Below are positions 7,893-45,764 of a stretch of DNA of 64,000 nucleotides, one piece after another; the first letter of the stretch is position 1, and the number at the start of each line of letters is the position of its first letter. The notes under the pieces were generated by a model. It did no database searches and was not told where the DNA came from. It worked only from the letters and a program-made list of their open reading frames with translations. Made by a program: the position numbers and the translations under genes. Source of the stretch: Rhizophagus irregularis. Lineage: Eukaryota. Where the stretch lies: the NCBI RefSeq assembly GCF_026210795.1, contig NC_089435.1, positions 2,976,001 through 3,040,000 on the forward strand, given 5' to 3'.

Positions 7893-8105
7893 AGGATCCC
7901 GAAATATATATGTAGAGGTCAGGTCCAGAAGTGGTCCAAAATACGCATTCTTTCAGGGCCGGAATTACGATAATTTCAGCCATTATCTAAATTAGGAAAT
8001 ATTATTTTGGCTGGGATTATCCATAAAAGGAATGATCTACATGATTTTTTTGACTCATTATACGCAAACTCTGACCTGACCCTTTTATGTATATTTCGGG
8101 GTCCT
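7893..8105. mobile_element. 213-bp MITE, copy 1
   Basis: TIRs AGGA(T/C)CCCGAAATA / TATTTCGGGGTCCT; 8-bp TSD GTCATGCT (7885-7892, 8106-8113); near-identical to 24926-25138. Confidence 0.95.
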
Positions 8106-21300: not shown

Positions 21301-22998
21301 GAATGTAATCATAATTTAGCATTTAATTGGATTCAAAAATCTGCAGAAAGTGGTAATATTATTGCTCAATTTTACTTAGGGAATTGCTATGAATTTGGTA
21401 TTGGAATTGCACAAAATACTATAAAATCAGTGTATTGGTATCAGAAAGCAGCTAATAATGAAAATACAAATGCAAAATTTTATCTTGCAAATTGTTATCG
21501 ATTCGGAAAAGGGGTTGATAGAAATGAGAAAAAAGCATTCGAATTAATAAAAGATTTAGCTGGAAAAGGTAATGCAGATGCCCAATTTGAGCTTGGATGT
21601 TATTATGATAAAGGAATTGGAACTGAAATTAATAAATCAAAAGCATTTGAATTATATAAAGTAGCAACAGAAAAAGGAAATAATGCAGCACAATATAATT
21701 TAAGTAGATGTTATGAATTAGGAGAAGGAGTTGATAAAGATGAAAAAAAAGCATTTGAGTTAATAAATGATTTAGTTGAAAAGGGTAATGTAAATTCTCA
21801 ATTTGAGCTTGGATATTATTATTCAAACGGAGTTGGAACTGAAATTAATAAATTAAAAGCATTTGAATTATATAAAGTAGCATCAGAAAAAGGAAATAAT
21901 GCAGCACAATATAATTTAAGTAGATGTTATGAATTAGGAGAAGGAGTTGATAAAGATGAGAAAAAAGCATTTGAGTTAATAAATGATTTAGCAGAAAAAG
22001 ATTATTTAAATGCTCAATTTCAACTTGGAAATTATTATAATGAAGGAATTGGAACTGAAATTAATAAATCAAAAGCATTTGAATTATATAAAGTAGCAAC
22101 AGAAAAAGGAAATAATGAAGCACAATATAATTTAAGTTCTTGTTATCGATTAGGAGAAGGAGTTGATAAAGATGAGAAAAAAGCATTTGAATTAATGAAA
22201 GATTTAATTGAAAAAGATTATTTAATAGCACAAGCACAGCTTGGATATTATTATGAATATGGAATTGGAATTGATAGGGATATTAAAAAAGCTTTATACT
22301 GGTACCAAAAAGCAGCAGAAAATGGTGATAGAGTTGCACAGTATAATTTAGGAGAGTGTTACGAATTGGGAAAAGATGTAAATAAGGATGAAATTAAAGC
22401 ATTTGAGCTTTATAAAAAATCGGCTGTAAATGGATATATAGATGCAAAATTTATACTTGGATATTACTACGTAAATGGAATCGGAACTGAAATTAATAAA
22501 GAAAAGGGGTTTGAATTATATAATGAGGCAGCTGGCACTAACATCCAAATTAATCTTATTAAAAATGATGACGAAATAGTAAATGATTTAGACAAAGTCA
22601 ATTATTGGTATCATAAAGCTGCAGAAAATGACAATAAACTTGCATTATATAAATTAGGTGAATTTTATGAATTAGGTAAAGGGGTTGGTGAAAATGAAAC
22701 AAGAGCATTTGAATTCTATAAGAAATCGGCTGATCAAGGATATATAAATGCTCAATATAAAGTTGGGTATATTTATAATTATGGAACTCAAATCATCATT
22801 GATAAAGAAAAAGCATTTAATTATTTTACAATGGCTGCAAAAGGAGGAAATGTTGATGCACAATACAACCTCGCATCTTTATATGAACGAGGAGATGGAA
22901 CCGAAAAAAATGTTGAGAATGCCATTTATTGGTACAAAAAGGCAGCAGAAAATGGATGCCAAGAAGCTGAAAAAGGTTTAAACTTATTATTAAAATAG
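18334..22998 (+). CDS. Tyrosine-kinase-like protein kinase with a long C-terminal Sel1-repeat array (5 exons)
   Basis: Exons 18334-18567, 18631-18703, 20053-20216, 20300-20627 and 20699-22998 join in frame. Motifs [41 protein letters not shown]; 36-aa AQYNLGxCYxxGxGV repeats. Start codon inferred. Confidence 0.93.
18725..20002 (+). mobile_element. Full-length Tc1 element (1278 bp) inside intron 2 of the kinase gene
   Basis: Perfect TIRs CAGTGTGGGACAAAAAAAATGAGAA; TA TSD (18723-24, 20003-04). Confidence 0.97.
18912..19880 (+). CDS. Tc1 DD34E transposase, 322 aa, intronless and intact
   Basis: HTH region, [24 protein letters not shown]...[15 protein letters not shown] with D-E spacing of 34. 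Confidence 0.97.
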   Translation: MTKTYDETLLRLWNNGIHDAKKLHKLTNISLSTIYRKIKKIKKNGLLEHAGGNGRPKKIIASASRVLSQYVRHDSSLSTRTLARKLQNIGVEASYRTVGRHLSGVGYLKRLPKATPMLTEAHKIKRVEWARQHINDRWNKTLFTDETAFQLFRNTVERWYKGERPVRRMPKDRTKIMAWGGFSAKGKTSLFCFKQIMNAEFYVEILRRHAPEMSQMLGDHWRFQQDNDPKHTSRLAKAFLTENFPVVLEWPSNSPDLNPIENLWSIIKNKVEKRMPKNLDDLEKFMVEEWQNIPNTVLINLSKSMKRRCELIIEKNGERIPY

Positions 22999-24925: not shown

Positions 24926-25138
24926 AGGACCCCGAAATATATATGTAGAGGTCAGGTCCAGAAGTGGTCCAAAATACGCATTCTTTCAGGGCCGGAATTA
25001 CGATAATTTCAGCCATTATCTAAATTAGGCAATATTATTTTGGCTGGGATTATCCATAAAAGGAATGATCTACATGATTTTTTTGACTCATTATACGCAA
25101 ACTCTGACCTGACCCTTTTATGTATATTTCGGGGTCCT
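24926..25138. mobile_element. 213-bp MITE, copy 2
   Basis: Same TIRs as 7893-8105; 8-bp TSD CCTGGAGC (24918-24925, 25139-25146). Confidence 0.95.
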
Positions 25139-26126: not shown

Positions 26127-29100
26127 CCCTATAAAAAAAAAATGTCCAGTTTTTGTTCAGAAATTGTCTGCCTATATTTTCCAGACAAAAACAGGATCTA
26201 TAAACATCCAGAATATTGCAATATTCCGGACATTCATAAATAAGGAATTCGTCCGGTTTTTGCCATATATTTGTCCGTCATTTGTCCAAATTTTGATTAT
26301 TCATAAATAAGTAATTTGCTTATATGATTTACTTTATAGTTTTTTTAGCAGTATTATTAGTATTATTTATTTATTCAAATTAAAAGCATAACAATAAAAA
26401 TCATAGACTATTTATTATATTATAAAAACAATAACTTTATTATAAATTAATCAATTAATACGATATGCTCCACTAATATTATAATCTACTTTCATTAAAA
26501 TTAAGATACAAGTAATTTTAACCTTGCTGAATAATTTTACTTAAGCATAAAAGAGTAGTTTCATTTGAATAAAGTGATGAACTTACGTTCTAAAGTTGGA
26601 AAATAGAAAAGTAAAATTCAAAAATTAGTATTCAATTAAAAAATGCAACTTACTCTACGAATATTGTACCTATACTTATGAAAATCTAAACACAAGTAAT
26701 TTCGACCTCATTGAACAACTTTACTTAAGCACAAAAGGGTAATTTCATTTGGTGAAAGTGGTGAAATTACGCTCTGAAGTTTAAAACAGAAAAATAAAAA
26801 TTTTGAAAACCAGTACTATTATAAAAAATTATGATTTCCTCTATAATTATCATACCTATGCATATGAAATAAGTATAATTTAACATTGCTGGACAACTTT
26901 GCTTCATAAAAGATAGCTTCGTTTGGCCAAAGTGGTGAGATTATGCATGAAATTACGCTTCAAAACTAGAAAATAAAAATACAAAAGTAAAAAGAAGAAA
27001 TTAAGGTACTATATATTATATAAAATATTATAACTTTACAAGAACAAGTAATAAAAACTGAGTTAAAAGAGTTTATTATATGTTAGTTCTTTGCTGAAAC
27101 TTGGAGTTTACAATCGATATTGATTAGATATCGCAATGATATCATTACGATATCATTTGCGATATTTTGATAAAAAATAGATTCGACATCGTTAAGTTAG
27201 TCGTAACTGTATTTATTCGATATTGATTAGTTCGATATCTCTGCGATATCGCTGCGATCATTATGCGATGTAAATATTATCATGTAACCACATCGTAGTG
27301 ATGTCGTATTAACATTGAATTAATATTACAAAAATATTTGACATTTATTTGATATCGTAACCACATCGTAGTGATGTCATATTAATATTGAATTAATATT
27401 ACAAAATATTTGACATTTTATTTGATATCGTAACCACATAGTAGTGATATCATATTAACATCAAATTAATATTGCAAAAATATTTTACATCTATTTGATA
27501 TCGTAACATCAGGAAATTATATAGTGCGAAAAGTTGCGCAAGTTTACACATCATAATATTTCGTAAGCTTCCAGACCCGCCACAAGTTTGCGTAAGCGTA
27601 ATATTTCGTAACTTTTTAAAATATTTCGAAATATTACGATATGCAAAGCTTCGTAATTTTACGATTTGTAATATTCCGTAATTTTGCGGTTCGCAATATT
27701 TCGTAATTTTACATAATATTTCGTAAGTTTTCAGACCCGCCGCAAGTTTGCGTAAGCGTAATATTTTGTAACTTTTTAAAATATTTCGAAATATTACTGT
27801 ATGCAAGGCTTCGTAATTTTACGATTCGTAATATTCCGTAATTTTACTGCGTAATACTTCGCAACTTTTTAAAATATTTCGAAATTCTATGATGCGTAAT
27901 GTTCCATAATTTGACGATTCGTAATATTCTGTGATTTTACACAACTTAATATTTCGTAATATTTCAAAATATTTCGATAAATAATACTTCATTTTCTGTA
28001 CTATAAGTTTATATAATGTATGTTTTATTAGATATAATCATAAAAAATTACAAGTATTTATTAATATATACAGAATACATAAAAGTAAAAAAGAGAAAGA
28101 GTAGAGTAACAATATTATTAGACGTAAAAAGAAGAGAAACAGCTATAGTAACGTTAGTATTAGATATAAAGATAAAAGAAATATTGTTATTATTGTTAGT
28201 ATTAAGGTAAAAAGAGTTAAAGAAACAGTAAAAGGAGTAAAAGAAACATGGATATTATCGTTAGTATTAAAGTACAAGTAAAAAGAAATAAAGGAAACGT
28301 AGATAGTATTGTTAGTATTACGACATAAAGTAACAAAGAGGTAAAAAAAAACGCGTTAATATTAAAATAATTAGTATTAATAAATAAATATTTCTATAAC
28401 TGCAAAGTAATTGAACAAAAGAATAAAGAAATAAAGAGAAAGGAAAAAATAAACATGTTGTTAGTATTGTTAGTATCGTTAGTATTAAAGTACAAGTAAA
28501 AAGGAATAAAGGAAACATGGATATTATTGTTAGTATTACGATACAAAATAACAAAGAGGTAAAAAAAAATGAAAATAATTAGTATTAATAAACAAATATT
28601 TCTATACCTGCAAAGCAATAAATTATGAAATATATGTAAATATATTGTATATAATTAAAGAAATAATAGAAAGAAGAGACAAAAAAATTAAAAATATTGA
28701 ACAAAAGAATAAAGAAATAAGAAACAAAAATAAATAAGACAAAAACGCGTGCATGATTAAATGATTAAATGATTAAATCACATGCAAGGATCAGCCTAAT
28801 TTTGATTGGCCAGAAATCATGTACATCGTATAGCGGGTGTGACATAAATAAATTGTGACTGAAATTTGTGTTCAATTTGTGTTCAATTTGTGTTGATAAT
28901 TCTGGTAAAAAATTTGTTAATTTTGGCCAAATTTCATTAAATTTGTTAAATTTGTGTTGAGTTTGTGTTGAATTTGTGTTGCGTAATTTTTTATTTATCA
29001 CAAGGGGATGATATTTAGTAATTGCATGTACGACGTACAAGATTTTTTTTATGATTTTTTTAAGAAATGTACGCAAAATATTTAATCAGAATATAATTGT

Positions 29101-29535
29101 TTTATTTTTAAATATGATATATTGATGATTTTTTTTTAAAAATTCAATAGAATGTGCTAATAATAAATTGTTTTATTTTTAAATATAATATATTGATATT
29201 TATATTTAAATAACCAAAACATGTACATGATTTTTAATTATTTTTAATTGAAATCAAACTAAGATTTTTTTTTAAAAAAAATTAAAATAAATTAAGTGAT
29301 TTATATCTATATTTAGAATCATGATATTTATATTTAGATAATCCATATCCGCATGAGATTTAATTAATATGTTTAATGATGAAAAGTCTAATAAATTAAA
29401 TTTTAATTGAAACGAGAAATAAAATCAAACCAAAGAGGTATTGTTCAAATTTTATTTAAAGTGACATTTTACGACTTTCTTTCAAATTTTTACTCATCCC
29501 AAAATCAAATTATAAAAATAAAATCAAATCTAATA

Positions 29536-30176
29536 ATGCCTCGCCAAACACGTCGTCGTTCCTATAACGTCCATTGGAACTGGGCTATGATGGACGAACT
29601 TGTCGACATACGCCGCGACAGAAACCGCGCCTACCATAATATTAATGGTAGAAGCCGCCATGATTTTTGGGACTCTGTTGCCAATAGGTTCATATGACTA
29701 ATATCTATAATTTTCTTTAAGAAAGAATTTAAATTCAAATTAACCAATCCATTTAATTGAATCAGAATAAATAGAATATTTCGAACGAGGGTTTCCGGGC
29801 AACAGTGCAGCCAAAAGTGGAGGAACCTCGTCAGGGATTACCATGTAAGTAAATAAATAAAATTACATTCATTTAAATTAAATGTATTTACCGAATATTC
29901 AAACTGATTTTGATATTTAGAACTATGTCCTTTATCGTAATGGTACCCCTGATCGGCCTGGGCGGCGGCTGTAGACGCGTACCGGCCAAAGATATTATCG
30001 CGAATTTAGAACGAGATTTTGGGAGAGGCCGGGTAATTATACTATAATAAAATTTTATAATTAATATTACATTCTATTTTACGTTCACATTTTAAATTTG
30101 ATAAATTTGATTAATTTTAGATACGCGTGATGATCGTAGGAGAAGGAGAAACTTACCTACGTATCGTAGAAGATAA
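29536..30176 (+). pseudogene. Myb/SANT-like (trihelix) DNA-binding protein, 4 exons, Arg-rich tail, one in-frame TAG
   Basis: Exons 29536-29687, 29766-29844, 29921-30032 and 30121-30176: VHWNWAMMDELV..FWDSVANRIN..SGQQCSQKWRNLVRDY..RFWERP. Confidence 0.8.
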
Positions 30177-30569
30177 TTATTTTTATTTTTTTATTTATTA
30201 AGTGAGTAGCTAGGCCCAGTCCGTACCAAATATCGGCTGGAGACTCACGTTTTTTTTGGGCTGTGACTGATACTGACGTCCACGCCGTACAGCCTGGGTA
30301 CTATTTTATAAAATAGTAGCGAACAAGTATCAAATGTATATTTTTTTATTAAGTTATAATAAAAATTAGAATTTACTTTAATTTTTAACATAAAAATTGT
30401 AAATAATAAAAAATTCGTAAATAAAAATAAATTTGCTTTCCCAAACTTAAAAAAAAAAGGTGTTTATATAAAAGAAAAGGTGTTTATATTATTTTTGATT
30501 ATTCAATAGTATCACATGCCCCTTGTATACGTTCTACTGCATACGCAGTTTACAATCTCGTAAATTTTC

Positions 30570-30960
30570 GAAACGGAATATTACGCAGGTTTACAGTCTC
30601 GTAAATTTTCGAAATATTTCAACCGTAATATTACGCAGGTTTACAGTTTCGTAAATTTTCGAAATATTTTAACCGTAATATTACGCAGGTTTACAGTCTC
30701 GTAAATTTTCGAAATATTTCAACCGTAATATTATGCAGGTTTACAGTCTCGTAAATTTTCGAAATATTTTAACCGTAATATTACGCAGATTTACAGTCTC
30801 GTAAATTTTCGAAATATTTCAACCGTAATATTACGCAGGTTTACAGTCTCGTAAATTTTCGAAATATTTCAACCGTAATATTACGCAGGTTTACAGTTTC
30901 GTAAATTTTCGAAATATTTCAACCGTAATATTACGCAGGTTTACAGTTTCGTAAATTTGC
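30570..30960. repeat. 60-bp tandem subterminal repeats (~6 copies)
   Basis: AACCGTAATATTACGCAGGTTTACAGTCTCGTAAATTTTCGAAATATTT recurs every 60 bp. Confidence 0.92.
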
Positions 30961-32716
30961 AGAATATTTTGACCGTAATATTGCGTAAATCTTACGATAT
31001 TGTAAACTTACGTAATATTTTAACCGTAATATCACATAAATCTTACGAAATTGTAAACTTACGTAATATTTTGAAATTTTTCGAAATATTATGCCATAAA
31101 CTTTCATAAACTTACAAAATCGTAAACTTACGCAATTTTTCGCGCTATAAAATTTCCTGATGAACCACATCGTAGTGATGTCGTATTAATATTGAATTAA
31201 TATTACAAAATATTTGACATCTGTTTGATATCGTAGCCACATCGTAGTGATGTCATATTAACATTGAATTAATATTACAATTTTATTTGATATCGTAACT
31301 ACATCATAATAATATCATATTAATATCGAATTAATATTACAAAAAATGTTTTACATTTATTTAATATCGTAACTACATCGTAATGATATTATATCAACAC
31401 TGAATTAACATCACAAAAATATTTTTATTGTAATATATGTTTATTATTTATTATACATTAATAATAATAATTTTTTATTAGTGGATTATTATGGGTGAGT
31501 GGAGTACGTTTCTTTTCTTCCTTTTTTTTTTATTCTTTTCTTCTCTTTTTTATTCTTTTCTTTTCGTATGTGAGTGGATGGATACGTCATTTTCAATTTT
31601 AAAATATATATATATATATATATAAAACAATCATGATTAATAAAATGTATTATTTGTAAAATATATTTAAAATTTAATACATAACCTTGGGATAATAGTT
31701 AGAGCAGGTAATTCCAGGATTTTGTAAAGAATAATAAAAATGATAATATTTTTAAGTTAGTTCTTTCTTTAAATTTTTTTGAGAGTGTTTTGTTTCTTAA
31801 AATCATAATATTGTAAAAAAATGCTGGTTGCTACGACTGACGGACAATGACAAATTGTCAGGCTACCCCCAGACAAAGTAATTGGAAGGCGGAAAATGCC
31901 ATAAATATCCAGCCCTATTTTACAACATTTTCTTCCAGGCTAAAGCAAATATTACAAAAGAAATTGCAAATATATTTAACAAGCAATAGATACATGGCCA
32001 TTGAAAAATATATTCACACTTCATATTGTAATACCACAGTCTAACAAAGAAATTGCAAATATATTTAACAAGCAATAGATACATGGCCGTTGAAAAATAT
32101 ATTCACATTTATACCACAGTCTAACAAAAAAATACTCAACCCACAACATATTGTAAAAAAAATATGAAAAATACGCGTATATCCTATTTTCATACCTTGC
32201 TTAACAGCTCCACTATTTATTTAAAAAATGGCTTTTTTCTCTTTTGTATGTGGTTAAGTGGGTACATTTTTCCTTTCTTTTATTCTTTTCTCTCGTATGT
32301 GAGTGGTGGGTACATTTTCTTTTCTTTATTCTTTTTTTATTCTTGCTTTTCGTATGTGGGTGTTTTACTATGTTGAATATATAAACTAAAGTGTCCCAAA
32401 GTATTGTTAATATTGTAAAAAGATAATTAAAGTATACTTTAAAAAGAGAAAAGAAGAGATGAACAAAATACCGTAAAGTGTTAATATAAAAGACAAGAGA
32501 AAAGTGTATTTTTGAAAATAAACAAAAAAAATCTCATTAATAAACGCGAATTTTAGCTATTTTTAGATATCACATGCATGTAATTAAAGTGATTTTAATT
32601 GGTTAATTTTAATTTATTATTACATCATGCATATGATTTTATTGGTTAATTTTAACCAAAATTTTATACGATACAAATTAAATAATTATTTTATTATATT
32701 TATATAATTAATATAA

Positions 32717-35700
32717 TTATATGACTGTAAAATAAAAATTATTTTTTATCCAAATTCTATTTGTAGTATCATGATTTGGTAGTTGGCACCTTTCTGAATT
32801 ACAATTATGAATAAAGTGTACTTTTTGAACATTATCTATTACAGTAATTGGAAAAATACGTCTCCATTTATCTTCTGTTGCTTGAAGACGGTAAAGTGGA
32901 CATTTTAATACTGAATGTTCAACCATAGTATCTTCAAACCAATCTACAACAATAAATGCATAATATTTGTTATTATTACCCTTATGTTGAAAGATACCTT
33001 TGATTATTGCATAAGATTCTTCATGATCTTCTTCATAAATTGTGATAAAATCACCGAGATGTAGGTGAACTTTTGAAAGAATACCATTTTTTTCTTCAAT
33101 TGTATATGATGCTAATTTGTACCAACTAATTGAAGAATTTATAAGTGCCGCCTCAAACTTCATATCCACATAAGATAAAAACAATTCAATTTTAAAATTA
33201 TGCAAAGTCAAGAGAAGTTTATCATGTTCCTGCTTTGACATTCTTTTTTTTAAGGAAATATTGGAAATAAAATTTACTGGTGAAGTAACTAAATTAAAAG
33301 ATTAGTAAATATTATGCATATGTGAAAAAATAAATATGAAGTACTATAATATTTTGCTATCTTACCTTTTACGTCATCATTTTGAATTTGTTCCTCAATT
33401 AAATATTTATCTTCTGTAACATACCAATTCGAAAATAATTGATCAAAATTTGAACTTGTGAACCCAGTACAAGATCTATTTAATCTTGGATCTATACCTC
33501 CATCTGCTAAATGTCGAATTGCAAATAAAGTATTGTAACGTTTTAATAAATCCAGGTCTATAGTTTTGCAATTAGTTTTTGGTACCATTCCTTTAAAGAT
33601 ACGATGAACCATCTCTTTTATACCAACCTGAAAGTTGACAAGTGTACCAAAAGTTTTAGCATGCATCAAAAGATGCATATTAATATGTATATTTGGTAAG
33701 TTAACAAAACTTGCAAAAACCTACATCAGGAAATTTGTTTAGGCGTAATTTAGTGTAATATTTCGAAGGTGGTGTAAAATTTCGAAATATTACACTAAAA
33801 ACGTAATATTACAAAAGTTTACGCTCTTAAATTTAAATAATTATAGTAATTTAAGAATATCTCGCTATCTACTGATCCAATCAAGACGATCTATAGCTCA
33901 TTGGAATCAGCTCATCAAGACGAATCGAATGGTGGTAAAATCGCATCTTTACGTTCGATAGATGGCTTTCTATTAATTTAGAACTTTATTGTATACTATA
34001 GAGCGTTCTATCAACTGTAGAAATGCGATTTTACCACCAATCGATTCGTCTTGATGAGCTGATTCCAATGAGCTATAGATCGTCTTGATTGGATCAGTAG
34101 ATAGCGAGATATTCTTAAATTACTATAATTATTTAAATTTAAGAGCGTAAACTTTTGTAATATTACGTTTTTAGTGTAATATTTCGAAATTTTACACCAC
34201 CTTCGAAATATTACACTAAATTATGTCTAAACAAATTTCCTGATGTATAAAAAAACAAAATATTGTTAATTATTGAATTATTCCATGTTCTGAATTTCAA
34301 ATTTATAATTATACCTTTGGAAGAATTAAAAACTCTTCTTTAAGACATAGCTGTAATTCCTCATAGCTATCTAACGTAAATTCCTTATTAAAAACTGCTT
34401 TCATAGTCTTTGCAACTTGTACCCAACAAGATATAATAGCTTTTAGCACTAAGCTAATTTGAGCCACATCAATCCTTTGTCGAATAGTGGCTGCTTCATT
34501 ATTTTTGAGGCTTGATTCCTTTAAAAATCGATTTAATAAAAATGGCATAATCATAGCTAGTCTAAGAAGATCAGACATCATAAAGCTATTGTAATGACTA
34601 ATTGGATTTGGTAGACGAGACCACTTTTTTGGAATTTCAAAATTTTTCCAAATTTTAACAAAATCATCCTCTCCTTCTTGTGAAAATAATTCACAGGTTA
34701 GTTTTAGTAGCCGCCCAATCTTTCCTGCGGTGGCATGATAAATATCCTGTGGCGTCTGTAAATGTCTCTCACGTTTTAATTTATCCAAAATACTAGGTAA
34801 TGATCTTAAACCATATTCTGTACAAAGTTGTCCTCTTTTTGAACTTACAGATTCTTGAGAAATTTTTGAAATTTCTTCATCTGTGATATGATGATAATGT
34901 AATGTTGTCACACTATCCTGATTATAGGTACTCAATGATTCCTTTTTAGTTATACAAGTACGGCAACCTTTATTTGCATTATGTCTAAATTGATTTTTAA
35001 ATTTAAATCATTTTAATAGTTGTTACGAAAATATATTATTAAGATTAATAATTAAATTGAAAAATACCTCAGTACTCCTGCCATATCATTACCTTGAGGT
35101 AGATCTGCTGTAACAAGGCCCAACCCAGCAATAACCCATGCATCTTGTCCTTGAACAGTCATAATCTTTCCTTTCTCAAATTTTTTTATTTCTGAAACAA
35201 ATGGTACCATAAACTCGTTAAAATTTCCACCAAAAGGAATAAATCCAAGAACAAAATGGTTCTTGATTAGCTTTCTCTGATGCGTTGACATGTTACCAAA
35301 CTGTATATAGATGCCACCTAAGGAATGGTATACATTTCTAAATGTACCAAAATCATCATAGTAAAGATCTAAAAACAGCTTATAAACTGGCATAGACAAC
35401 GGTGGATTTCTGACAGAAATGTAATCTGAAGGATGTTGGTATGAAAGCTTTGCATCACGAACGTGCCAACGGTCATTACATTTATAAATTATTTCAGTAA
35501 TTCGTAATGAACCTTCTGGAATAATTTGGTGTTTATACGTCATCATTATAGTTACTTTCTCTAAAATTTGAGAGGTAATTATGGTTATAAATGGTTCATC
35601 CTGAAACCATACTTCCCCAGTTAGAGAACGACGTTGTCTTGATAGCCCTTTTATATTTCCAGGTAAATCATCATAATTTAAAATTAGTTGAACTCGTAAC

Positions 35701-36824
35701 TCATAGTTTCCATTTTCATCTTTTAAAATTGCTCTCAACCTTCCAAGTTTTTTAAGACCATTATCATGATAGTAGACAAAATCACCAGATTGATATATTA
35801 CTATTTTATTAAAATAAATATTTTAATGTTAACAAATCATAATTATACCAAAGTATATTGTCCTATTACCTTCTGATATTATTATTTCATGTTGTCCAAA
35901 AAGTGGTGATTCTCCCCATAAAGTTCCATGCCAATATTCTGACTTTGTTTCAGAATTAACACTGGGTCCGAAATACATATGCTTCATCAGCATTGGATTG
36001 TTGAGAACATGCCATATAATATCACTAATTGAGAGTTGATATGAAAGCTTCGAATCTCGCGAAGTTGACAGAGTTTTTTTTGGTAAAATTTGAATAGGCT
36101 TTGTTATTATTGGTAGGAGAGGAAGACGTTTTCTCCATGATTGGAATCTACAGATATTTTTTACTACATGAGTAGGTTCGAATTGAGGATTGTGAATGAT
36201 ATCAACAAGGTCTTCATATGCTTTTGTAGAAACATTATGCTTCTGAAGCCAACAAAATAGTGCCGTAGTTGTATAATTATCAAAGTACGGTGCAAATTCA
36301 CCATTGCAGGACGGTATCTTGTCTTTATCCAAAGCTTCAACAATTTGATGTATTTCTTCCTCTTCATTGTCATTACGTTCCTCTTCATCATTGTTACGTT
36401 CCTCTTTCTCTTCATTATTACCTTCCTCTTCCTCCTCTTCATTATTGTCTCCATTATCATCATCTTCCTTCTCATCCCTATTGTATTCATTGTCATTTTC
36501 CTCTTCCTCTTCACTATTGTATTCATTGTCAGTTTCTTTTTCCTCTTCATTATCAAATGATTGATCATCATCTTCCATCTCATCATTGTAATACTGAGGA
36601 CCAATTGATCCATATTCATTATCATCATCATTAATGTCCTGAAAACTTAAATCATTATCTTCGTGATTATACTGAAAGTCCATGTTATCGTCATCATTAT
36701 CAGGTGAACGTATAGGTGAACGTCTCTCACCAGAAGTAGTTGTCTCACCAAGATTGCTGTAAGAAAACCAATTTCGAATTCGAATTGGTTTTATTGGTTT
36801 GGCGTGACTATATCGTCTCCTCAT
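32717..36824 (-). CDS. CMC/EnSpm (Tnp2/Plavaka-like) transposase with acidic N-terminal tract and C-terminal BAH-like domain, ~1094 aa
   Basis: Exons 36824-35870, 35800-35068, 34984-34315, 33720-33366 and 33288-32717 total 3285 nt with no stop. Motifs LDLYYDDFGTF, VTADLPQG..CRTC, PQDIYH, PNIHINMHL..KEMVH; tail LGDFITI..YAIIKGIF..FIVVDWF. Confidence 0.85.
33724..34245. mobile_element. 522-bp foldback MITE (CATCAGGA family) in intron 3 of the transposase
   Basis: Near-perfect inverted arms of about 240 bp starting CATCAGGAAATTTGTTTAG; TSD TA. Confidence 0.95.
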
Positions 36825-37094
36825 CTTTATAACAATTACAATTTAAATTAATTTAAATTTAACTAGAATTTTATTAATTCAATTAGAACTTTAAATTTAT
36901 TAAGCGTGTTGGCAAAAAAAAAAAAAAAAAAATGCAATTGCCAATTAAGTAATCACTTCGGTTAAATTAATGCCGATTTGGCTATTAATGGATACACAAA
37001 ATTTAGGGTCAATTATACTGTATATGGTTAATAACAATTGATTGGTATGACAAATAATATTATCGAATAATGTCATTTATTGAATAAAATAATA

Positions 37095-37290
37095 AGTATA
37101 TAATAAAATAAAATAAAACATAATAATAAAATAAAATATAACATAATAATAAAATAAAATAAAACATAATAATAAAATAAAATAAAACATAATAATAAAA
37201 TAAAATAAAACATAATAATAAAATAAAATAAAACATAATAATAAAATAAAATAAAACATATAATAAAATAAAATAAAAAATAAAATGAAA
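37095..37290. repeat. AT-rich minisatellite (~23-24 bp unit)
   Basis: TAAAATAAAATAAAACATAATAA repeated about 7 times. Confidence 0.9.
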
Positions 37291-37298
37291 TAAAAATA

Positions 37299-37874
37299 TT
37301 AATGACGTCGGTGACGATGAGATCGAGAATGAGAGCGCCCGCACTCTCGGTGGTGATAGGGGGATCAGGAGCGAGAGCGCCTAGAGCGCCTGCGCTCTCT
37401 ATACTCGTATGTCCTACGATCCACCCTATTTCTCTGGGAGGACCAGACTAATGCTTAAAACAAAGCAATTATTAATATAAATGCAATGAATTAATGAAAA
37501 AATCAGTTAAATAATAAATACTTACGCTCAACTCTCCAGAACTCGTCTGAGAGTTCTTGGTGGAACCTCTCGTCGTGTAAAGATGGGGTACGAGTAGGGT
37601 AATCATCAGGATTTCTATTGATTAGCCTCTCTAGATTCTCGTACCCCACCTTTAGTGCATTCCACTTCTCTCTGCATTGTTTTCTAGTTGGCCTGAATGT
37701 GTGGTTGTTTCGTATATCACGAGCAATTCCACTCCATAATTGTTTTTGGTCATGTAACCTCGTTGTGGTGAATAAGGGCTGATAGGCCCGATGACGCTGA
37801 ATTAAGGTCAAAGCAGCGTCATCGGGCCATTGAATGTATACTGGAAGATTTGCGTTTAAGTTTAATGCTGCCAT
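37299..37874 (-). CDS. Myb/SANT-like (trihelix) protein with Arg/Ser/His-rich tail; probable premature TGA at 37365-37367
   Basis: IQWPDDAALTLI..LWSGIARDI..TRKQCREKWNALKVGY..EFWRVE. Intron 37525-37454; exon 2 reads ..RRSRRSRS*SPYHHRECGRSHSRSHRHRRH. Confidence 0.8.
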
Positions 37875-37942
37875 TATTAAATATTATTAGTTTGATGGGG
37901 AAAATGTCAAGAAAAGGCTCTATATTTATAATAAATTTATTA

Positions 37943-38245
37943 TGATTTCTTTGAGTTTATTTTTACGATCTTGTCTAAATTTTTTAGTTCTAATGCAATC
38001 CTTAATTAATTTATTTAACATTGAATACACACATAATTTTTTTTTGATTTCTTTGAGTTTATTTTTACGATCTTGTCTAGTTCTAATGCAATCATCTTTA
38101 ATTAATTTATTTAACATTGAATACACACATATTTTTTTTTGATTTCTTTGAGTTTATTTTTATGATCTTGTCTAAATTTTTTAGTTCTAATGCAATCATC
38201 TTTAATTAATTTATTTAACATTGAATACACACATAATTTTTTGAT
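37943..38245. repeat. Three ~100-bp tandem repeats upstream of the Myb/SANT gene
   Basis: TGATTTCTTTGAGTTTATTTTTA(C/T)GATCTTGTCTA...AACATTGAATACACACAT occurs three times. Confidence 0.9.
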
Positions 38246-39544
38246 TTATTAATTTATTTTAAAAATATAGTTACAGTAATACTGCATCACGGCGTTAATT
38301 AATATATATAAATAAAAATAAATAAACAAATTCTATTAATAAAAAGTGAGTTAAAAATGTTATTTATAATTATACATTAAAAAAAGCAATAAAGAAGACG
38401 AAAGTAATCTGCAAATTATATTTAAGGTAAAAGAAAATGTAATATTTTAAACCACGCATGTCCTTCCTTGATTATATTTCATATTACACTGCGATGATAT
38501 ATTACAATTATACTGAATTTTAAGCTAACCTTAATCTACACCGTAAGGAACTTAATTCGATCTTAATTTACTCCGTTTTAGAATATTACCGAACAATTAG
38601 ACAAATGATTAGTTGCACATGACTTGCATTATTTGTATAGTTGATACTTTATATACCGATATTTGATTACACCAATATGTATTAAAACTCTTTCCTACAG
38701 TATAAAATATCAATATATCGGTATTTTTCAAATATCGTTGTAAGTTGACTACTGTAGATCCCATCTATCTATTTAAAAAATTCTTTTATGTAATCAATCC
38801 AGGGGCTTACACTAAATAAGGCTTAGATATGGCTTAGTTAGATAGGATCATCACATGGTTCAGTTTAAAAATAATCGATCTTTTTTATTGATTGGTTTTT
38901 TTCCGATCATATTTTATATTTTATCGTCAAGAGTATAATTATTTAAAAATTTAATTTTTCTTGCATGTCATCGTATCACACATAAAAATGGAAATTCAAA
39001 ACGTAATATTCCATTAATTTCTTCTCACTTCTTTTTCTTCTACCGATCATTTTTCTTCTCACCCCTTTCCATTATTTTTCTTCTCATTCCACGTATAGCC
39101 TGAAAATATAATAAAATTTGGAACCGTAAAATCGATTTGAGGTAATCTTCCATATAAAAAAAAATGTCACTGAATGAAATTCGATATTGTAATAATTTAT
39201 TTATATAAACTAAATTTAATTTCCGATCCTCTAGAAATCATAGTTTTTTTCCATCTTTCAACATTTTCAACTGATCCCGCATTCCCCTCAATTTATACGG
39301 TACACAACGATATTGAGATCCTGCATACTTTCCAATTACGTTCTATAATTAAAATTACAGTAACCAAGATTTCATTTATATCGTGACAACCTCGTTTTAT
39401 ATCCCATATTTGATCAAGGGTTATATCGACAATCTCGCTCTTTTGATCAAGGAGATCTCATTTATATCATGACAATCTTGCGAGAAGTTTACTTCACTTT
39501 TTTTCTCGTTTTCTCATTTTCTCTTATTCTCTCATTACGATATT

Positions 39545-40879
39545 ATGACTAAACGTAATAATAAAGAAATAGAAATCGAAACAGGTATATATATAACTCT
39601 TCCGTAAAAGTTTTGCTTATATGTAAGAATAATAACCAAAATATGTATAATAGGATCAAAAAAAAATCAAAGGACCTTACCGAGAAAGAGGAGAGAAATA
39701 AATATTGAAGAAACTAATCAATTATTATTAGGTAAATATTAATTTATATAGGCTTTAGCTCTTTAATATTATTCTATTAATTTTTAATTGAAATAATTGA
39801 AATAATATATTACATACAGATATGAATACCAGGCAAAAACATAACGAAAGTGAAAAGGAAGTAATAGTAGAAGAGGATGTAAGGGATAAAAGTGAAGAAG
39901 AAGAGGAGGAAGAAGAAGAAGAAGATGATGATGATAATGACAAGTTAGGCGCGGCTAAAACAATTCCGGATCCGTTTCAGTTTTGTACCAAATTAGACAT
40001 ATGTAACTGGCTTGTAAAAAATCCAGAAATCTTACGATTAGCGAATGAGATGAACGAATCATCTTATGTTGTTAGTTAGAAGAATACTGAAGTTAGTATT
40101 AATACAATATGATAATATTTATTATGTCTAAATCTCAAATAACGTATCTCAATATTTTAGGATAAAATATGACTATGGGATGAGTCGGTAAAGTGCTTAT
40201 TTTTACGAGTGAGGAATCCGAGTAGTGAAGCACTCGACAATTTGGTTGTGAAAATTTTTCAGTTTAAAATTTACACTAGCGAAGCTAGAGGATATCTAGA
40301 TAAAACTCGTAAGTCTTTAACAGACTTCAGGAATAAATTCAACCAAAATATTCTAAATTTAGTGAGGGAATAAAAAGAAATCAGAAAGAGCAGGTATTTG
40401 TTTATTTTATTGTTTTATAGTCAACAAAATAGTGCCATTTGTATAATTATTAATTAATTAATTATAGGGGTACGACTGGAAATCTTTCCCAAAAAGAAAT
40501 TAAAGATTACGTTGACGAAAATGTGGTGCAGAAACTTCTAAACCGTCAACTCGCAGCTGTCAATATTTTGGAATTGACAAATAATGGAGGCATGGATACG
40601 TTAGTTGAGTTTGTTAAGGAAGCCGTCCGCGTTTCTTGGGACGGTAAAAACTTACCTGGTATAAAGGAGTTGGATACCATGACTAAAAATATAATTATCC
40701 CTTCCCGAAGTGGAAGTGATATAGTAAATACCCTAAAACAAGTAAGTTATTTTATTTATTTCGCACATCATGCCTTTGATAATAATATATTAATAAAATT
40801 AAATTATAGATTTAGGTGCGTTCTTATAAAATTATATGACGAAGAAGAATCATTAATAAATGATTTTATAAAATTTTAA
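39545..40879 (+). pseudogene. Multi-exon accessory gene of the CMC element, unknown function, acidic tract, at least two internal stops
   Basis: ATG 39545; several GT-AG introns; segments EEEEEDDDDND..KLDICNWLVKNPEIL, KI*LWDESVKCLFLRVRNPS, FRNKFNQ, LVEFVKEAVRVSW. 3' end uncertain. Confidence 0.6.
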
Positions 40880-41366
40880 TAAAAAAATAAAATTGAGTTT
40901 TATTGAGTATTTCTTTTTAGTTTATTTAATTATATTCTTTTAATGGTATAGACTTTAATAATAATTAGCTTCAATCGAAAAATCACAAAAAGTTTTAAAA
41001 GTTTTGAATATCTGTTGAGATTCAATCATATTTGAATTTCTTTAACTTGTTGTGTTATTACCATTAAATAATCAATTATCTATATAAACTGTGTAAAGTT
41101 AATTTGGCTCTATTTTGATAATATCCACCTATAAAGAACTCATCTGTGCATTACCTAAACAATTATTGGTTGATCAAGTTCATATAATACCAAATTTATA
41201 AAATTGTCTGATTAAATGATCGCGTAATTAAATGATCGCGTATATTAAATGATCACGTATAAGACCTATTAATTCCTAAAAAGTCAATTCAACCACCATT
41301 TTATTTAACCGCTATTTATTTGTACGTTTTTTTTTTTTTGAAAAAAAAAAACTTTCTTTCTGAAAA

Positions 41367-42380
41367 GTAGAGTCTTCCTCCTATACCGTTTGCCGTCGTG
41401 CATAGTGTATTATAGGAAAAGGCGGACTTGTTTGATTGATTATATGGGCATAAGCTTATGTTATATAGGCGTAAAACTTATATAATCAGTTTGATAACGC
41501 AACGAAAATCCTTTAATCAAGGGTTAAAATAGGCATGATGGGATATTCTCATATATCATGAGCTCTGTCTGTTCGAAGTGTCGTTTTATATATAATTAAG
41601 TAGGCTTAAGTCATAAGTAACTTTTTTATAACATTGATTATTGGAGAATTAAGTGGCAAAAATAATTTTTAGTTTGTAAGACTTTAACTCCATACCAACT
41701 TGTGTGTGTTTGGGCGTTAATTTATTCCCTAACCCTTAGATCCACTCGTGGGTTGGTAGGTTGCTTTGCACTTCTTGCAGCCTATCTTCTAATGGGTTTT
41801 AGGTCCACGTTTGCCCATTTAAAATTTATTAAACAGGATGTCATTCGTCCAAACACATTGCAACGTTTGTTGATGAAGCTATGGTTGTCTAATAAAAGTT
41901 CGCTTTGCCTGGCAATTTATAGTGGATTCAATGGATCAAATTACAAACAACAATAATTTAGTCATATGAGAATTCCAGGCCAATGAATAAGGGTGCATTG
42001 TCAAAGTTGAGAATATATTTGTATTTTTTTTTTTAAAGCCGTCATTCTCATGAACTTTTTCATTGTATCCCTAAGTTCAATGATTTTGGTAATGATGAAA
42101 CTGCAGTTGTTTATAGGGGTTTCCCGCCAAACTTCTGAGGTGAATTTATGTCTGGTGTTTTCGAATATACTTATCCTTTTTGCAATAGAGTCGTAGCGAG
42201 TCTTCTTAAAGCGTACCTGTGACACCCCATCCAACTTGGGCAGTGTCGCTGAATTTAAAGCAAGGTACCCGGTTAATCCTCAACTTTGGGTTGATGAGTT
42301 ATGATTCTGGAGTATTAAGGCATAATGTTTTGACTTACATCACCAATTTAACTCATAATTCTAATTTATTGAATTAGTTT
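41367..42380 (+). ncRNA. Candidate ~1 kb structured non-coding RNA with a telomerase-RNA-like template/pseudoknot core
   Basis: GC-elevated, hairpin-dense, no credible ORF. Helix 41705-16/41846-57 encloses CCCTAACCCT (41727-36) and an H-type pseudoknot (41791-41839). Ends estimated from base composition only. Confidence 0.55.
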
Positions 42381-43970
42381 ATTATAGATTTATTGATATT
42401 TTTTTTATCTGTTATATAATATTTAAACTAATGTATACTTTATCTGTAATTAAAATTGTTATTGTAATAAATAACCGGTAACTTAAATCTATTGAAATTA
42501 ACTTTTAAATTAGATTACAAATTATTAAAATATTATAAAATTGAATTTAACGATATTTGATTGATTTGATATTTTTATAGATAATATCATTTTGATATTA
42601 TTTTGATACTGAATTAATATTAAAATAATATTATATTGATATTGCATTTATTAAAAAAAATCATTATTGTTATAACAATATCAAAATGATATCGTTTCGT
42701 TATTTGTCAATATCGATTAGATAATTATAAAGTGATATCTTTACGATATCATATTGATATTGAATTAATGTTAGAACGATATCATATTAATATCGTATTT
42801 ACTTTCTATTTTTCATTGTTGTTATAACAATATCGAAATGATATCGATTTGATGTTTCGTCAATATCGTTATGATGTCGATTAGATAATTATAAAGTGAT
42901 ATCTTTACGATATCATATTGATATTGAATTAATGTTGGAACGATATCATATTAATATCGTATTTACTTTCTATTTTTCATTATTGTTATAACAATATCGA
43001 AATATTGATATGATATCGATTTGATGTTTCGTCAATATCGTTATGATGTCGATTAGATAATTATAAAGTGATATCTTTACGATATCATATTGATATTGAA
43101 TTAATGTTGGAACGATATCATATTAATATCGTATTTACTTCCCATTTTTCAAAAAATTCATTGTTGTTATAACAATATCGAAATGATATCGATCTGATAT
43201 TTTTTCAAACAAATATCTTTACGATATCATTTCGATATATTGAATTAATATTGAAATGATATCATTGCGATATCATAATGATATCATTTGCAAATCGATA
43301 TCGCCACGATATTTATTTAACATCATTATTATATCAATTCGGTATTGTTTAAAAATTCAAGGTTTCTGTAAAGTTTGTACTTTTGAAAAAAAAGGGAAAA
43401 AAGGGGAAAAGATTTTTTTTACAGCTATCACGTAAACAATAAACAAATAAACAAAAAGGTAATCACGTGATATTAGTGACGATCATTTGAATTTTGATGT
43501 AAAGCGAAAAAATCAACTGCACGTGATACAGTAATTCTATAAAATTAATTTTTTTATTGTTCAACCATTAATTATTGAATATAATAGAGAAAAAAGTTGT
43601 GAGATATTTTGCTGTAACTGTCAGTTATATACACTACATTCTCGTTAAATATGGTGGATGATCAAAAAAATTCTGGATATTTTATGGACGAATTCTGGAC
43701 GATCAAAAATATCAAATTCCAGATGATCAAAATTCCTTGGACATTTTCCAGACATATTCTGTACATTCAAAAAATTCCGGACATTTTTTTTGGGCAAATT
43801 CCAGATGATCAAAAATTCTAGACATTTTTCTAGACAAATTCCGAACAATCAAACATTCAGAAAATTGGTTTTTGTCCTAAATCCTGCAATATCTGGACAA
43901 TTTCCAAACATTTTCTGGATGCACCCAGACATTTTTAGATACAATTTCCAGACATTTCTTTTTTATAGGG

Positions 43971-44396: not shown

Positions 44397-45764
44397 TGGT
44401 GATTTTAATGCTCACCAGTGGTGAAATTCATCCAAGGTAAAGTTCACCTATATTACATAATTTATTAAAATTTAAATTGTTTTGTTTTGAAAAAAATAAT
44501 AATTTTATTAATAAAAATATTTATATAAAATATATAGTTTAAATATAATAATATATTATACAATAATTCATAAGTTAGTATTATTATAAAAAATGAATAA
44601 ATCCTACAATATTAAGTAGATTTTATATTGCTAAACAACTTTCAATTAATAAAGGAAGTAAATTTCATTTGACTGAAGTGGTGAAATTACATTCTAAATT
44701 AGTAAATGGAAAAAAGAAAAATTTGAAAGTTAGTATCGTTATGAAAAATGTAGATTTCTCCATATGTATTATACCTACACCCATGATAATTAATATACAA
44801 GTAGTTTCGACCTTGCTGAACAATTTTCAATTAAGTTAGAAAGTTGATTTCATTTGACTAAAGTGGTGAAATTACGCGCTGAAGTTAATAAACAGAAAAA
44901 AAAAAATTTGAAAGTTAGTACCTTTATGAAAAATGTAGATTTCTCCATATGTATTATATCTACACCCATGAAAATTAATATACAAGTAGTTTCGACCTTG
45001 CTGAACAATTATCAATTAATTTGGAAAGTCGATTTCATTTGACTAAAGTGGTGAAATTACGCGCTGAAGTTAATAAACAGAAAAAAGAAAAATTCGAAAG
45101 TTAGTACCATTATGAAAAATGTTGGTTTCTCCATATATATTATACCTACACCCATGAAAATTAATATACAAGTAGTTTCGACCTTGCTGAACAATTTTCA
45201 ATTAATTTAGAAAGTCGATTTCATTTGACTAAAGTAGTAGTAAAATTACGCTCTGAATTAATAAATGAAAAAACAATTTTGAAAGTTAGTACCATTATGA
45301 AAAATATGGGTTTTTTTATATGTATTATACCTACACTTATAAAAAATAATATACAAGTAGTTTTGGCTCTGTTGAACAACTTTTAATTAATAAAAGAAAT
45401 TGAATTCATTTGACTAAAGTAGTGAAATTACACTCTAAAGTTATTAAATAAAAAATATAAAACTTTAGGAGTTAAACAGTTAGTGGTGTTATAAAAACAC
45501 AAATTTCTCTATAAATTTCATTTCTAATTTATGAAATTGAGTTGTAAGGGTTTAATAGTATGTTTGGAAAAAAAGTTACAGTTTAAAAAAATTCATAAAA
45601 AAATTTTTATTTACGTGTATGAAATTGTAAAACGTAATACAAACAAAATTAATATAAAACTTATAAAACTAAAATTATCATATTACTGGTGAATTTCACC
45701 AGAGGTAAATTCACCACTGGTGAATTAATTTTAAATTAACCACTGGTGAATATAAAATTAATCC
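44397..45764. mobile_element. Non-autonomous Mutator (MULE)-like element with an internal ~187-bp tandem array
   Basis: 9-bp TSD TAAATATTA (44388-96, 45765-73); degenerate TIRs with TCACCAGTGGT / ACCACTGGTGA; about 4.5 tandem units at ~44620-45460. Confidence 0.75.

What the first reader, a model, noticed from the sequence alone, without database searches (positions are those of the whole stretch)
41700..41863. Telomerase-RNA-like template/pseudoknot core carried inside a DNA transposon
Seen in sequence: a 12-bp helix TGTGTTTGGGCG (41705-16) / CGTCCAAACACA (41846-57) encloses four parts in order. These are a 10-nt U-rich linker; CCCTAACCCT (41727-36; 4-nt alignment + 6-nt template for TTAGGG); two hairpins (GATCCA-CTCG-TGGGTT, which can keep the template unpaired, and GTAGGTTGC/GCAGCCTAT); and an H-type pseudoknot. 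The pseudoknot has stem 1 AATGGG/CCCATT (41791-96/41814-19), loop TTTTAG, and stem 2 GTCC-AC-GTTTG / TAAAC-A-GGAT (41803-13/41830-39), with three U-A pairs facing the U4 loop. Established: enclosing helix, U-rich linker, ~1.5-repeat template and a U-A.U triple-helix pseudoknot define the telomerase RNA core, TTAGGG is the common fungal repeat, and Marek's disease virus is a precedent for a parasite-encoded TR. Inference: this is either the host TER or a captured or mimic TER mobilised by the CMC element, which could recruit TERT to transposition breaks or titrate it. I know of no described transposon-borne TER.
Basis: partly seen in the sequence, partly recalled or inferred. Interest (0 to 1): 0.93.

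Follow-up and report, generated by a model that had tools for sequence, protein, structure and literature searches.

The report
Transposon carrying a telomerase RNA gene
A family of jumping DNA elements in a root-symbiotic fungus carries a conserved, folded non-coding unit shaped like telomerase RNA, which likely supplies the template for the host's chromosome ends, a job normally done by a fixed host gene.

Summary
The template-pseudoknot core (41700-41863) is the 5' domain of a conserved unit of about 670 nt (41672-42342), just inside the right terminal repeat of a 16.3-kb TIR DNA transposon (27089-43373) of Rhizophagus, whose telomere is TTAGGG. A metagenome scan anchored 550 nt away from the template gave 5 homologues (75-99%) among 112 loci. 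The 10-nt template is invariant in all 6 sequences. Two copies leave the window exactly at the TIR end, and one diverged copy carries TIR, RNA, ORF2, Myb gene and transposase in the same order, with the RNA as conserved as the transposase while the spacers are unalignable. A second, nearly invariant three-way-junction domain (42188-42307) sits where CR4/5 would. Against: in silico the template is predicted to be paired in all homologues, P6.1 is not cleanly met, Rfam has no match, and transcription and TERT binding are untested. Best reading: a working telomerase RNA kept under selection inside a transposon (0.55). No such case was found in 10 literature searches.

The parts
41700..41863 (+). 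Template-pseudoknot domain, closed by an enclosing helix (41700-16 with 41846-63)
   Evidence: helix forms in 6 of 6 homologues at -12.8 to -21.8 kcal/mol
41727..41736 (+). 10-nt template for TTAGGG (4-nt alignment, 6-nt copied part), inside a 14-nt invariant block 41726-39
   Evidence: invariant in 6 of 6
41739..41754 (+). Hairpin H1 3' of the template; competes with a template-pairing helix
   Evidence: 3 changes keep pairing (1 compensatory), 1 breaks it; energetics
41756..41785 (+). Hairpin H2
   Evidence: 6 of 6 changes keep pairing, 1 compensatory
41791..41839 (+). H-type pseudoknot with U4 loop facing three U-A pairs (predicted triple helix)
   Evidence: stem 1 G-C to A-U in 3 of 6; stem 2 position 41804/41838 reads U-A, A-U, G.U or U.U; U4 in 6 of 6
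41865..41948 (+). Conserved middle hairpin (helix 41878-89/41911-23) followed by an A-rich hinge with an ANANNA box candidate at 41950-55
   Evidence: 3 of 3 changes keep pairing
42188..42307 (+). Nearly invariant three-way-junction domain, candidate CR4/5 equivalent; NUNGN hairpin at 42281-93
   Evidence: invariant runs of 22, 19, 13 and 13 nt (the 22-nt run and the 13-nt run at 42294-306 overlap the search anchor); identity 89-97%; alternative folds
42331..42342 (+). Long-range helix with 41960-64, then an invariant ACA where conservation ends; candidate 3' end
   Evidence: 1 compensatory change, ACA in 6 of 6
41367..41671 (+). Lineage-specific 5' extension, shared with L025 and L050 only; weakly structured
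   Evidence: z = -1.51
27089..27507 (+). Left terminal inverted repeat and GATATC-rich subterminal repeats
42560..43373 (-). Right GATATC-rich subterminal repeats and terminal inverted repeat; element ends at 43373
   Evidence: L050 and L069 diverge from the window at this end
32720..36824 (-). Spliced transposase-like gene (about 1100 aa), CMC/Plavaka-related
   Evidence: tblastn blocks; 97-98% to proteins named R. irregularis, 283 relatives; Atlas features Transposase_21; no Pfam hit
37503..37883 (-). Myb/SANT-like ORF
   Evidence: PF13837 above cut-off; also in L069
39801..40740 (+). Exons of ORF2, a protein of no known family, upstream of the RNA

Best explanation
A Rhizophagus TIR DNA transposon family carries, next to its right end, a conserved structured unit with a telomere template and pseudoknot that is likely a working telomerase RNA, predicted to bind the host TERT and template TTAGGG repeats. 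Shown: the anatomy, its conservation with pair-preserving changes, its fixed place in the element, and the element's mobility. Inferred steps: (1) an ancestor of the family captured the host telomerase RNA gene; (2) the unit is transcribed on the + strand, probably by Pol II, because T runs of 8-11 nt lie inside it in 6 of 6 copies; (3) TERT binds the pseudoknot core and the 3' junction domain and opens the template; (4) it copies 41732-41727 after a 4-nt alignment; (5) in a largely clonal, multinucleate host, copies that keep a working RNA are favoured because they supply or top up telomerase RNA, so selection holds the RNA while the spacers decay. The RNA-bearing right end has also been swapped between subfamilies.
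For: Template invariant in 6 of 6, although the search anchor lay about 520-555 nt downstream. Whole structure: 95.7% of 508 cells paired, 11 double-change cells against 4.8 +/- 1.7 in shuffles (0 of 500), slid controls 30-45%. Identity to L069 is 72-95% over 41700-42299 against 40-55% in the 500 nt upstream and 46-52% at 42400-42599, with a shuffled baseline of about 36-56%. Against L042 there are two peaks (79-88% and 89%) around a variable linker, the two-domain layout described for telomerase RNA (PMC3592445, PMC4993307, passages). L069 holds TIR, RNA, ORF2, Myb ORF and transposase in order. L050 is 98% identical over 5.4 kb with a different flank from the TIR end on. Eight ORF2 relatives at 88-100% bear distinct locus tags of one annotation, on 7 contig lengths. 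R. irregularis telomeres are TTAGGG (PMC10234402).
Against: RNAalifold pairs the template with the G-rich strand 15-20 nt downstream (6 of 8 pairs invariant). Opening the template costs 0.5-2.8 kcal/mol in 4 sequences and 6.3-6.6 in L042/L063, where the 5' helix strand pairs with it instead. The NUNGN hairpin costs 5.2-7.5 kcal/mol against an invariant alternative pairing, has 3 bp in 2 of 6, and lacks the junction adenosine. Such hairpins are also common by chance (49 on the + strand of the window). No Rfam family reaches its threshold, and no telomerase model appears at E up to 10. The 6 sequences are about 4 lineages; pairs with double changes were 6 against 3.7 (25 of 500) and further pair types 24 against 26 (477 of 500). 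A 10-nt invariant stretch has a chance of about 0.012 in this domain. Transcription, strand, ends, TERT binding and the presence of a separate host gene are untested.
Confidence: 0.55

Rival explanations
1. The RNA is a telomerase-RNA homologue used as a decoy. It would bind TERT through the pseudoknot and the 3' domain while its template stays paired, and so would lower telomerase activity, for example to stop telomere addition at the element's own excision breaks.
For: All 6 homologues can sequester the template in silico, by two different strands in two groups of lineages. The 3' junction domain is the best-conserved part.
Against: A decoy need not keep an exact telomere template, yet it is invariant in 6 of 6. 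The only change seen in the sequestering helix breaks it, whereas the competing hairpin H1 shows a compensatory change. Human telomerase RNA also has inactive alternative folds in cells (PMC11754830, abstract).
Confidence: 0.17
2. The transposon copies are passengers: a captured host gene fragment of the Pack-element type. The L042/L063 type or an unseen locus would be the real host gene, and gene conversion or end-swapping would keep the copies alike.
For: L042/L063 lack the GATATC arm within the 430-940 nt held downstream and lack ORF2 upstream. The ORF2 and RNA relationships disagree: L025 is closer to L069 in ORF2 (83% aa) but closer to the window in the RNA (92%), so recombination occurs. 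Against L025, non-coding DNA upstream of the RNA is as conserved as the RNA.
Against: Between two TIR-bearing copies (window, L069) the RNA is 84% identical with pair-preserving changes while the adjacent spacers are at baseline, which neutral carriage does not give. L042/L063 share an upstream block and the 3' tail with the transposon copy L069, and L063 abuts a multi-copy repeat gene, so they look element-derived as well.
Confidence: 0.13
3. It is a structured transposon RNA of another function (a scaffold, guide or regulator for the element's own proteins), and the telomere-like 10-mer and the pseudoknot are convergent.
For: No Rfam telomerase match. P6.1 is not cleanly met. ORF2 has no known family and could be the partner. 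Telomere 9-mers alone are common (274 matches in 150 simulated windows).
Against: Template plus this pseudoknot arose once in 150 simulated windows, before asking for the 12-17-bp enclosing helix. The order, spacing, U-loop and U-A stack match the published core, and the template fits the host repeat.
Confidence: 0.15

Closest known systems
Telomerase RNA of filamentous fungi, fission yeast and animals (PMC3592445, PMC8480181, PMC4993307; passages read)
   Same: About 1.5-repeat template, core-enclosing helix, pseudoknot with a U-rich loop facing U-A pairs, and a second conserved junction domain downstream of a variable linker.
   Different: Lies inside a multi-copy transposon. Conserved unit about 630-675 nt, shorter than the 900-2425 nt given for fungi. 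Canonical P6.1 with junction adenosine not met. No conserved Sm site or 5' splice site after the junction domain. No Rfam match. No activity shown.
Marek's disease virus vTR (PMC3203187, one passage)
   Same: A telomerase RNA carried by a genetic parasite, probably taken from the host.
   Different: A virus, not a chromosomal DNA transposon; 88% identical to a known host gene, whereas no separate host gene is known here.
Mimulus telomerase RNA paralogues moved by transposition (PMC12169523, passages)
   Same: Telomerase RNA genes duplicate and change place; the authors speculate that DNA transposons are involved.
   Different: There a transposon merely lies within 2 kb in 6 of 9 species. Here the RNA is between the TIRs and is a fixed part of the element in three subfamilies.
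Gene-capturing TIR elements (Pack-MULE, Pack-CACTA; search listings only)
   Same: Host sequence carried between terminal repeats.
   Different: Such cargo is usually fragmentary and decays (recalled). Here a whole non-coding RNA is under structural selection in a transposase-bearing element.
CMC (CACTA/EnSpm, Plavaka) transposons of Rhizophagus (PMC8647823, passages)
   Same: TIRs, subterminal repeats, large spliced transposase with Transposase_21-like features, accessory ORFs; CMC is among the recently expanded families.
   Different: Ends read CTTT, not CACTA; no Pfam hit; no RNA cargo reported in the passages read.

Membership tests
Telomerase RNA | Template complementary to about 1.5 host telomere repeats, conserved | tested here: met
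   10 nt, invariant in 6 of 6; host repeat TTAGGG
Telomerase RNA | Core-enclosing helix around template and pseudoknot | tested here: met
   forms in 6 of 6; less regular in L069, L042 and L063, with 3 breaking against 2 keeping changes in the inner 9 pairs
Telomerase RNA | Pseudoknot 3' of the template with U-rich loop and U-A pairs for base triples | tested here: met
   both stems and U4 in 6 of 6, compensatory change in stem 1; the triples themselves are inferred
Telomerase RNA | Template single-stranded and accessible | tested here: inconclusive
   folding favours a paired template; sequence changes favour the competing hairpin
Telomerase RNA | Second TERT-binding stem-loop domain distal to the template | tested here: inconclusive
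   a nearly invariant junction domain sits at 42188-42307; binding not testable
Telomerase RNA | Transcribed, bound by TERT, directs repeat synthesis | not testable with these tools
Vertebrate/filamentous-fungal CR4/5 | P6.1: 4-bp stem with NUNGN loop | tested here: inconclusive
   sequence fits in 4 of 6, 3 bp in 2 of 6; disfavoured by 5.2-7.5 kcal/mol
Vertebrate/filamentous-fungal CR4/5 | Invariant adenosine between P6 and P6.1 (PMC4993307) | tested here: not met
   the base 5' of the hairpin is U in 6 of 6; not filed as canonical CR4/5
Fungal snRNA-type telomerase RNA | Sm site and 5' splice site at the 3' end | tested here: not met
   a splice-donor-like motif at 42312 is in 4 of 6, an Sm-like U run in 1 of 6
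Box H/ACA-type telomerase RNA | Hairpin, H box, hairpin, ACA three bases from the end | tested here: inconclusive
   ANANNA at 41950-55 and terminal ACA in 6 of 6, closing helix with one compensatory change; hinge is A-rich, the junction domain lies in the 3' arm, real 3' end unknown
Rfam telomerase families | Covariance-model score at threshold | tested here: not met
   0 hits at gathering score in the window; none at E up to 10 in 41200-42500, L042, L063, L025
TIR DNA transposon | Terminal inverted repeats and insertion at different sites | tested here: met
   2 of 2 homologues that reach the end have other flanks
TIR DNA transposon | Target-site duplication | tested here: inconclusive
   TT on both sides in the window; weak in A+T-rich DNA; both ends seen for one copy only
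CACTA/EnSpm in the strict sense | CACTA/CACTG termini | tested here: not met
   both ends read CTTT
CMC superfamily | Tnp2 (Transposase_21)-type transposase | tested here: inconclusive
   no Pfam hit; Atlas features 0.95 to Transposase_21 clusters, 0.92 to Plavaka; predicted model too poor to search (mean pLDDT 38)

The most novel reading that the evidence does not exclude
Rhizophagus has no stand-alone telomerase RNA gene: its telomerase RNA exists only as cargo of this transposon family, so chromosome-end maintenance depends on a mobile element that cannot be lost or fully silenced.
Probability: 0.25. Interest if true: 0.96.

Novelty: new variant of a known kind. Interest (0 to 1): 0.83.

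Why it matters
It would give a first telomerase RNA candidate for arbuscular mycorrhizal fungi, a lineage between animals and Dikarya for which the searches found none, and a seed for finding the RNA in other early-diverging fungi and for dating the switch in 3'-end processing. It would also be a concrete case of a core housekeeping non-coding RNA maintained inside an active-type DNA transposon, a host-element dependency so far only speculated on for plants. Both points are directly testable by reconstitution with TERT and by scanning public Rhizophagus assemblies.

Tried and rejected
No own genome is held, so copy number and a separate host gene could not be checked directly. Viral-contig scans gave 3, 3, 1 and 0 matches and none is a homologue. 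A transposase scan there confirmed 0 of 61 candidates. The prokaryote scan gave 1 match limited to the anchor. Of 112 metagenome loci, 107 had no support beyond the anchor; 32 of the 112 held at most about 620 nt. A weaker NUNGN hairpin at 41915-27 was rejected as P6.1, because variation supports the long middle hairpin instead. A minus-strand RNA was rejected: folding and G.U-type changes favour +. Pol III transcription is unlikely given internal T runs of 8-11 nt. SRA: 20 of 24 listed runs from 15 studies hold the stretch, the best at 0.72 of the words. In four laid runs (DNA or of unknown kind), summed contig depth over the RNA unit was several times that over ORF2 in X2 and X3, and X1 covered only 41377-42557, but the tool states that this is no copy number and that missing cover proves nothing. 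ORF2 gave no family. The transposase model was too poor for a fold search. The sigma-70 scan is irrelevant to a fungus and at chance level. Earlier scan notes: nothing. A ciliate-like telomerase RNA suggested for Lichtheimia had no homologue in other basal fungi (PMC4133162, passage) and was not compared.

Full report
Observation. The 164-nt stretch folds at -51.3 kcal/mol, z = -4.41, 0 of 200 shuffles as stable. The enclosing helix extends to 41700/41863. A descriptor for template plus U-loop pseudoknot, written after seeing the finding, hit once in 150 simulated windows, after 0 of 18 template matches in 115 unrelated loci, and after 21 of about 3000 planted templates. The arrangement is therefore well beyond chance, though a telomere 9-mer alone is not.

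Host and element. The gene at 32720-36824 (-) is 97-98% identical to proteins named Rhizophagus irregularis and has 283 relatives in the search. ORF2 has 38 relatives, all named R. irregularis, 8 of them with distinct locus tags of one annotation on contigs of 7 lengths. R. irregularis telomeres are TTAGGG (PMC10234402, passages). The element runs from 27089 to 43373, with imperfect terminal inverted repeats, GATATC-rich subterminal repeats, and TT on both flanks. It holds the transposase-like gene, a Myb/SANT ORF, ORF2 and the RNA unit. Pfam does not name the transposase. A language-model search places its core with Transposase_21 clusters at 0.95 and Plavaka at 0.92. The ends do not read CACTA, so I call it CMC-related and do not file it as CACTA.

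Homologues. One metagenome scan, anchored on a hairpin about 550 nt downstream of the template, gave 112 loci. Five are true homologues by BLAST and nhmmer: L050 99%, L025 88%, L069 83%, L042 and L063 75% by BLAST. With the window they form about four lineages. L050 matches the window at 98% over 5.4 kb and leaves it at the TIR end; L069 does the same, which shows insertion at different sites. L069 (11.9 kb) carries TIR, RNA unit, ORF2, Myb ORF and transposase in the window's order, with a nested DUF659 insertion. L025 carries subterminal repeats, RNA unit and ORF2. So 3 of 5 homologues are plainly in the element. L042 and L063 lack the GATATC arm and ORF2 in the DNA held, but share an upstream block and the 3' tail with L069, and L063 abuts a gene 96-97% identical to a multi-copy R. 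irregularis family. Loose ends of this same type appeared in 2 of 4 laid runs. Whether it is a host gene or an element remnant is open.

Selection on the RNA. The template lies in a 14-nt block invariant in 6 of 6; given 64% invariant columns in this domain, a 10-nt invariant stretch has a chance of about 0.012. Compensatory changes occur in pseudoknot stem 1, hairpins H1 and H2, and a long-range helix that closes the 3' part. The pair count over 86 pairs gave 95.7% of 508 cells paired and 11 double-change cells against 4.8 (0 of 500 shuffles). It gave 6 pairs with double changes against 3.7 (25 of 500) and no excess of pair types (477 of 500); relatedness inflates such scores. Against L069 the unit is 72-95% identical while the spacers on both sides are at shuffled baseline; against L042 there are two conserved peaks around a variable linker. 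Against the closer L025, upstream non-coding DNA is as conserved as the RNA, and ORF2 and RNA give different relationships, so the RNA-bearing right end has been exchanged between subfamilies.

The 3' domain. 42188-42307 is the best-conserved part and folds as a long arm ending in a three-way junction. It holds a 4-bp hairpin whose loop fits the NUNGN consensus of P6.1 (PMC3592445, passages). That hairpin costs 5.2-7.5 kcal/mol against an invariant alternative pairing, has 3 bp in 2 of 6, and lacks the junction adenosine described for vertebrate and fungal CR4/5 (PMC4993307, passages). Echinoderm and protostome RNAs work without P6.1 (PMC8480181, passages), so this lowers 'canonical CR4/5', not 'telomerase RNA'. 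Conservation stops just after an invariant ACA at 42337-39, preceded by a helix with a compensatory change, and an ANANNA box sits in the hinge at 41950-55. An H/ACA-type end is my guess (about 0.4); the fungal Sm-plus-splice-site end is not conserved.

Results against. RNAalifold pairs the template with the G-rich strand just downstream. With the pseudoknot strands held, opening the template costs 0.5-2.8 kcal/mol in four sequences and 6.3-6.6 in L042 and L063, where the 5' helix strand takes it. The sequence changes side with hairpin H1: the only change in the rival helix breaks it. Inactive alternative folds are known for human telomerase RNA (PMC11754830, abstract), but probing must decide. 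Rfam gives nothing. TERT itself was not looked up in the host; its presence is inferred from the telomere repeat.

Mechanism. Most likely (0.55) the unit is a working telomerase RNA: captured once, transcribed on the + strand by Pol II, bound by host TERT through its two domains, and kept because copies supply telomerase RNA to a largely clonal host. All of these steps are inferred. Rivals are a TERT decoy with a sequestered template (0.17), another structured transposon RNA with a convergent template (0.15), and passenger cargo of a separate host gene (0.13). That it is a telomerase-RNA homologue at all I put at about 0.85.

Comparison and novelty. It is built like the telomerase RNA core of filamentous fungi and animals; family membership is likely but not shown. 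The nearest precedents are Marek's disease virus vTR (PMC3203187, one passage) and the proposal that DNA transposons move telomerase RNA genes in Mimulus, where a transposon only lies within 2 kb (PMC12169523, passages). Ten full-text searches listed no Glomeromycotina telomerase RNA and no telomerase RNA inside a transposon. I saw most hits as listings only, and read passages of PMC8647823, PMC4133162 and PMC12449055. The library lacks most subscription papers, and I opened no supplements, where repeat libraries or ncRNA tables for Rhizophagus could bear on this. Verdict: new variant of a known kind, interest 0.83.

Noticed in passing
window 27507-31162: A 3.66-kb element with short terminal inverted repeats and an apparent 3-bp target duplication is nested in the left subterminal repeat of the large transposon.
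   Followed up: partly
window 33722-34247: A 526-nt near-perfect foldback (254-nt arms, 95%) with the same terminal motif as the nested element sits between two coding blocks of the transposase gene.
   Followed up: partly
L042 480-880; L063 about 130-510: A G+C-richer, folded stretch of about 400 nt (z = -2.57) lies just upstream of the RNA core and is unrelated to the window's 5' extension; L069 has none.
   Followed up: partly
L069 5961-7189: DUF659 (hAT-like) transposase fragments are inserted between ORF2 and the Myb ORF.
   Followed up: no
L042 1697 / L063 1333: The two 96%-identical loci part at one point about 190 nt after the RNA's ACA; L063 continues into the end of a multi-copy repeat gene.
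   Followed up: partly
window 42329-42339 (- strand): The invariant 3' motif reads as a perfect splice-donor consensus on the opposite strand; probably coincidence.
   Followed up: no
window 2978-3889 (-), 18882-19880 (+), 20695-22998 (+): A DNA polymerase B fragment, a Tc1/mariner DDE transposase and a Sel1-repeat protein, ordinary for this genus.
   Followed up: no
window 26477-26980 and 44614-45474: Related arrays of about 185-nt units flank the large element on both sides, suggesting that it inserted into an older repeat.
   Followed up: no
window 7893-8105 and 24926-25138: A 213-nt direct repeat at 99% identity, 17 kb apart.
   Followed up: no
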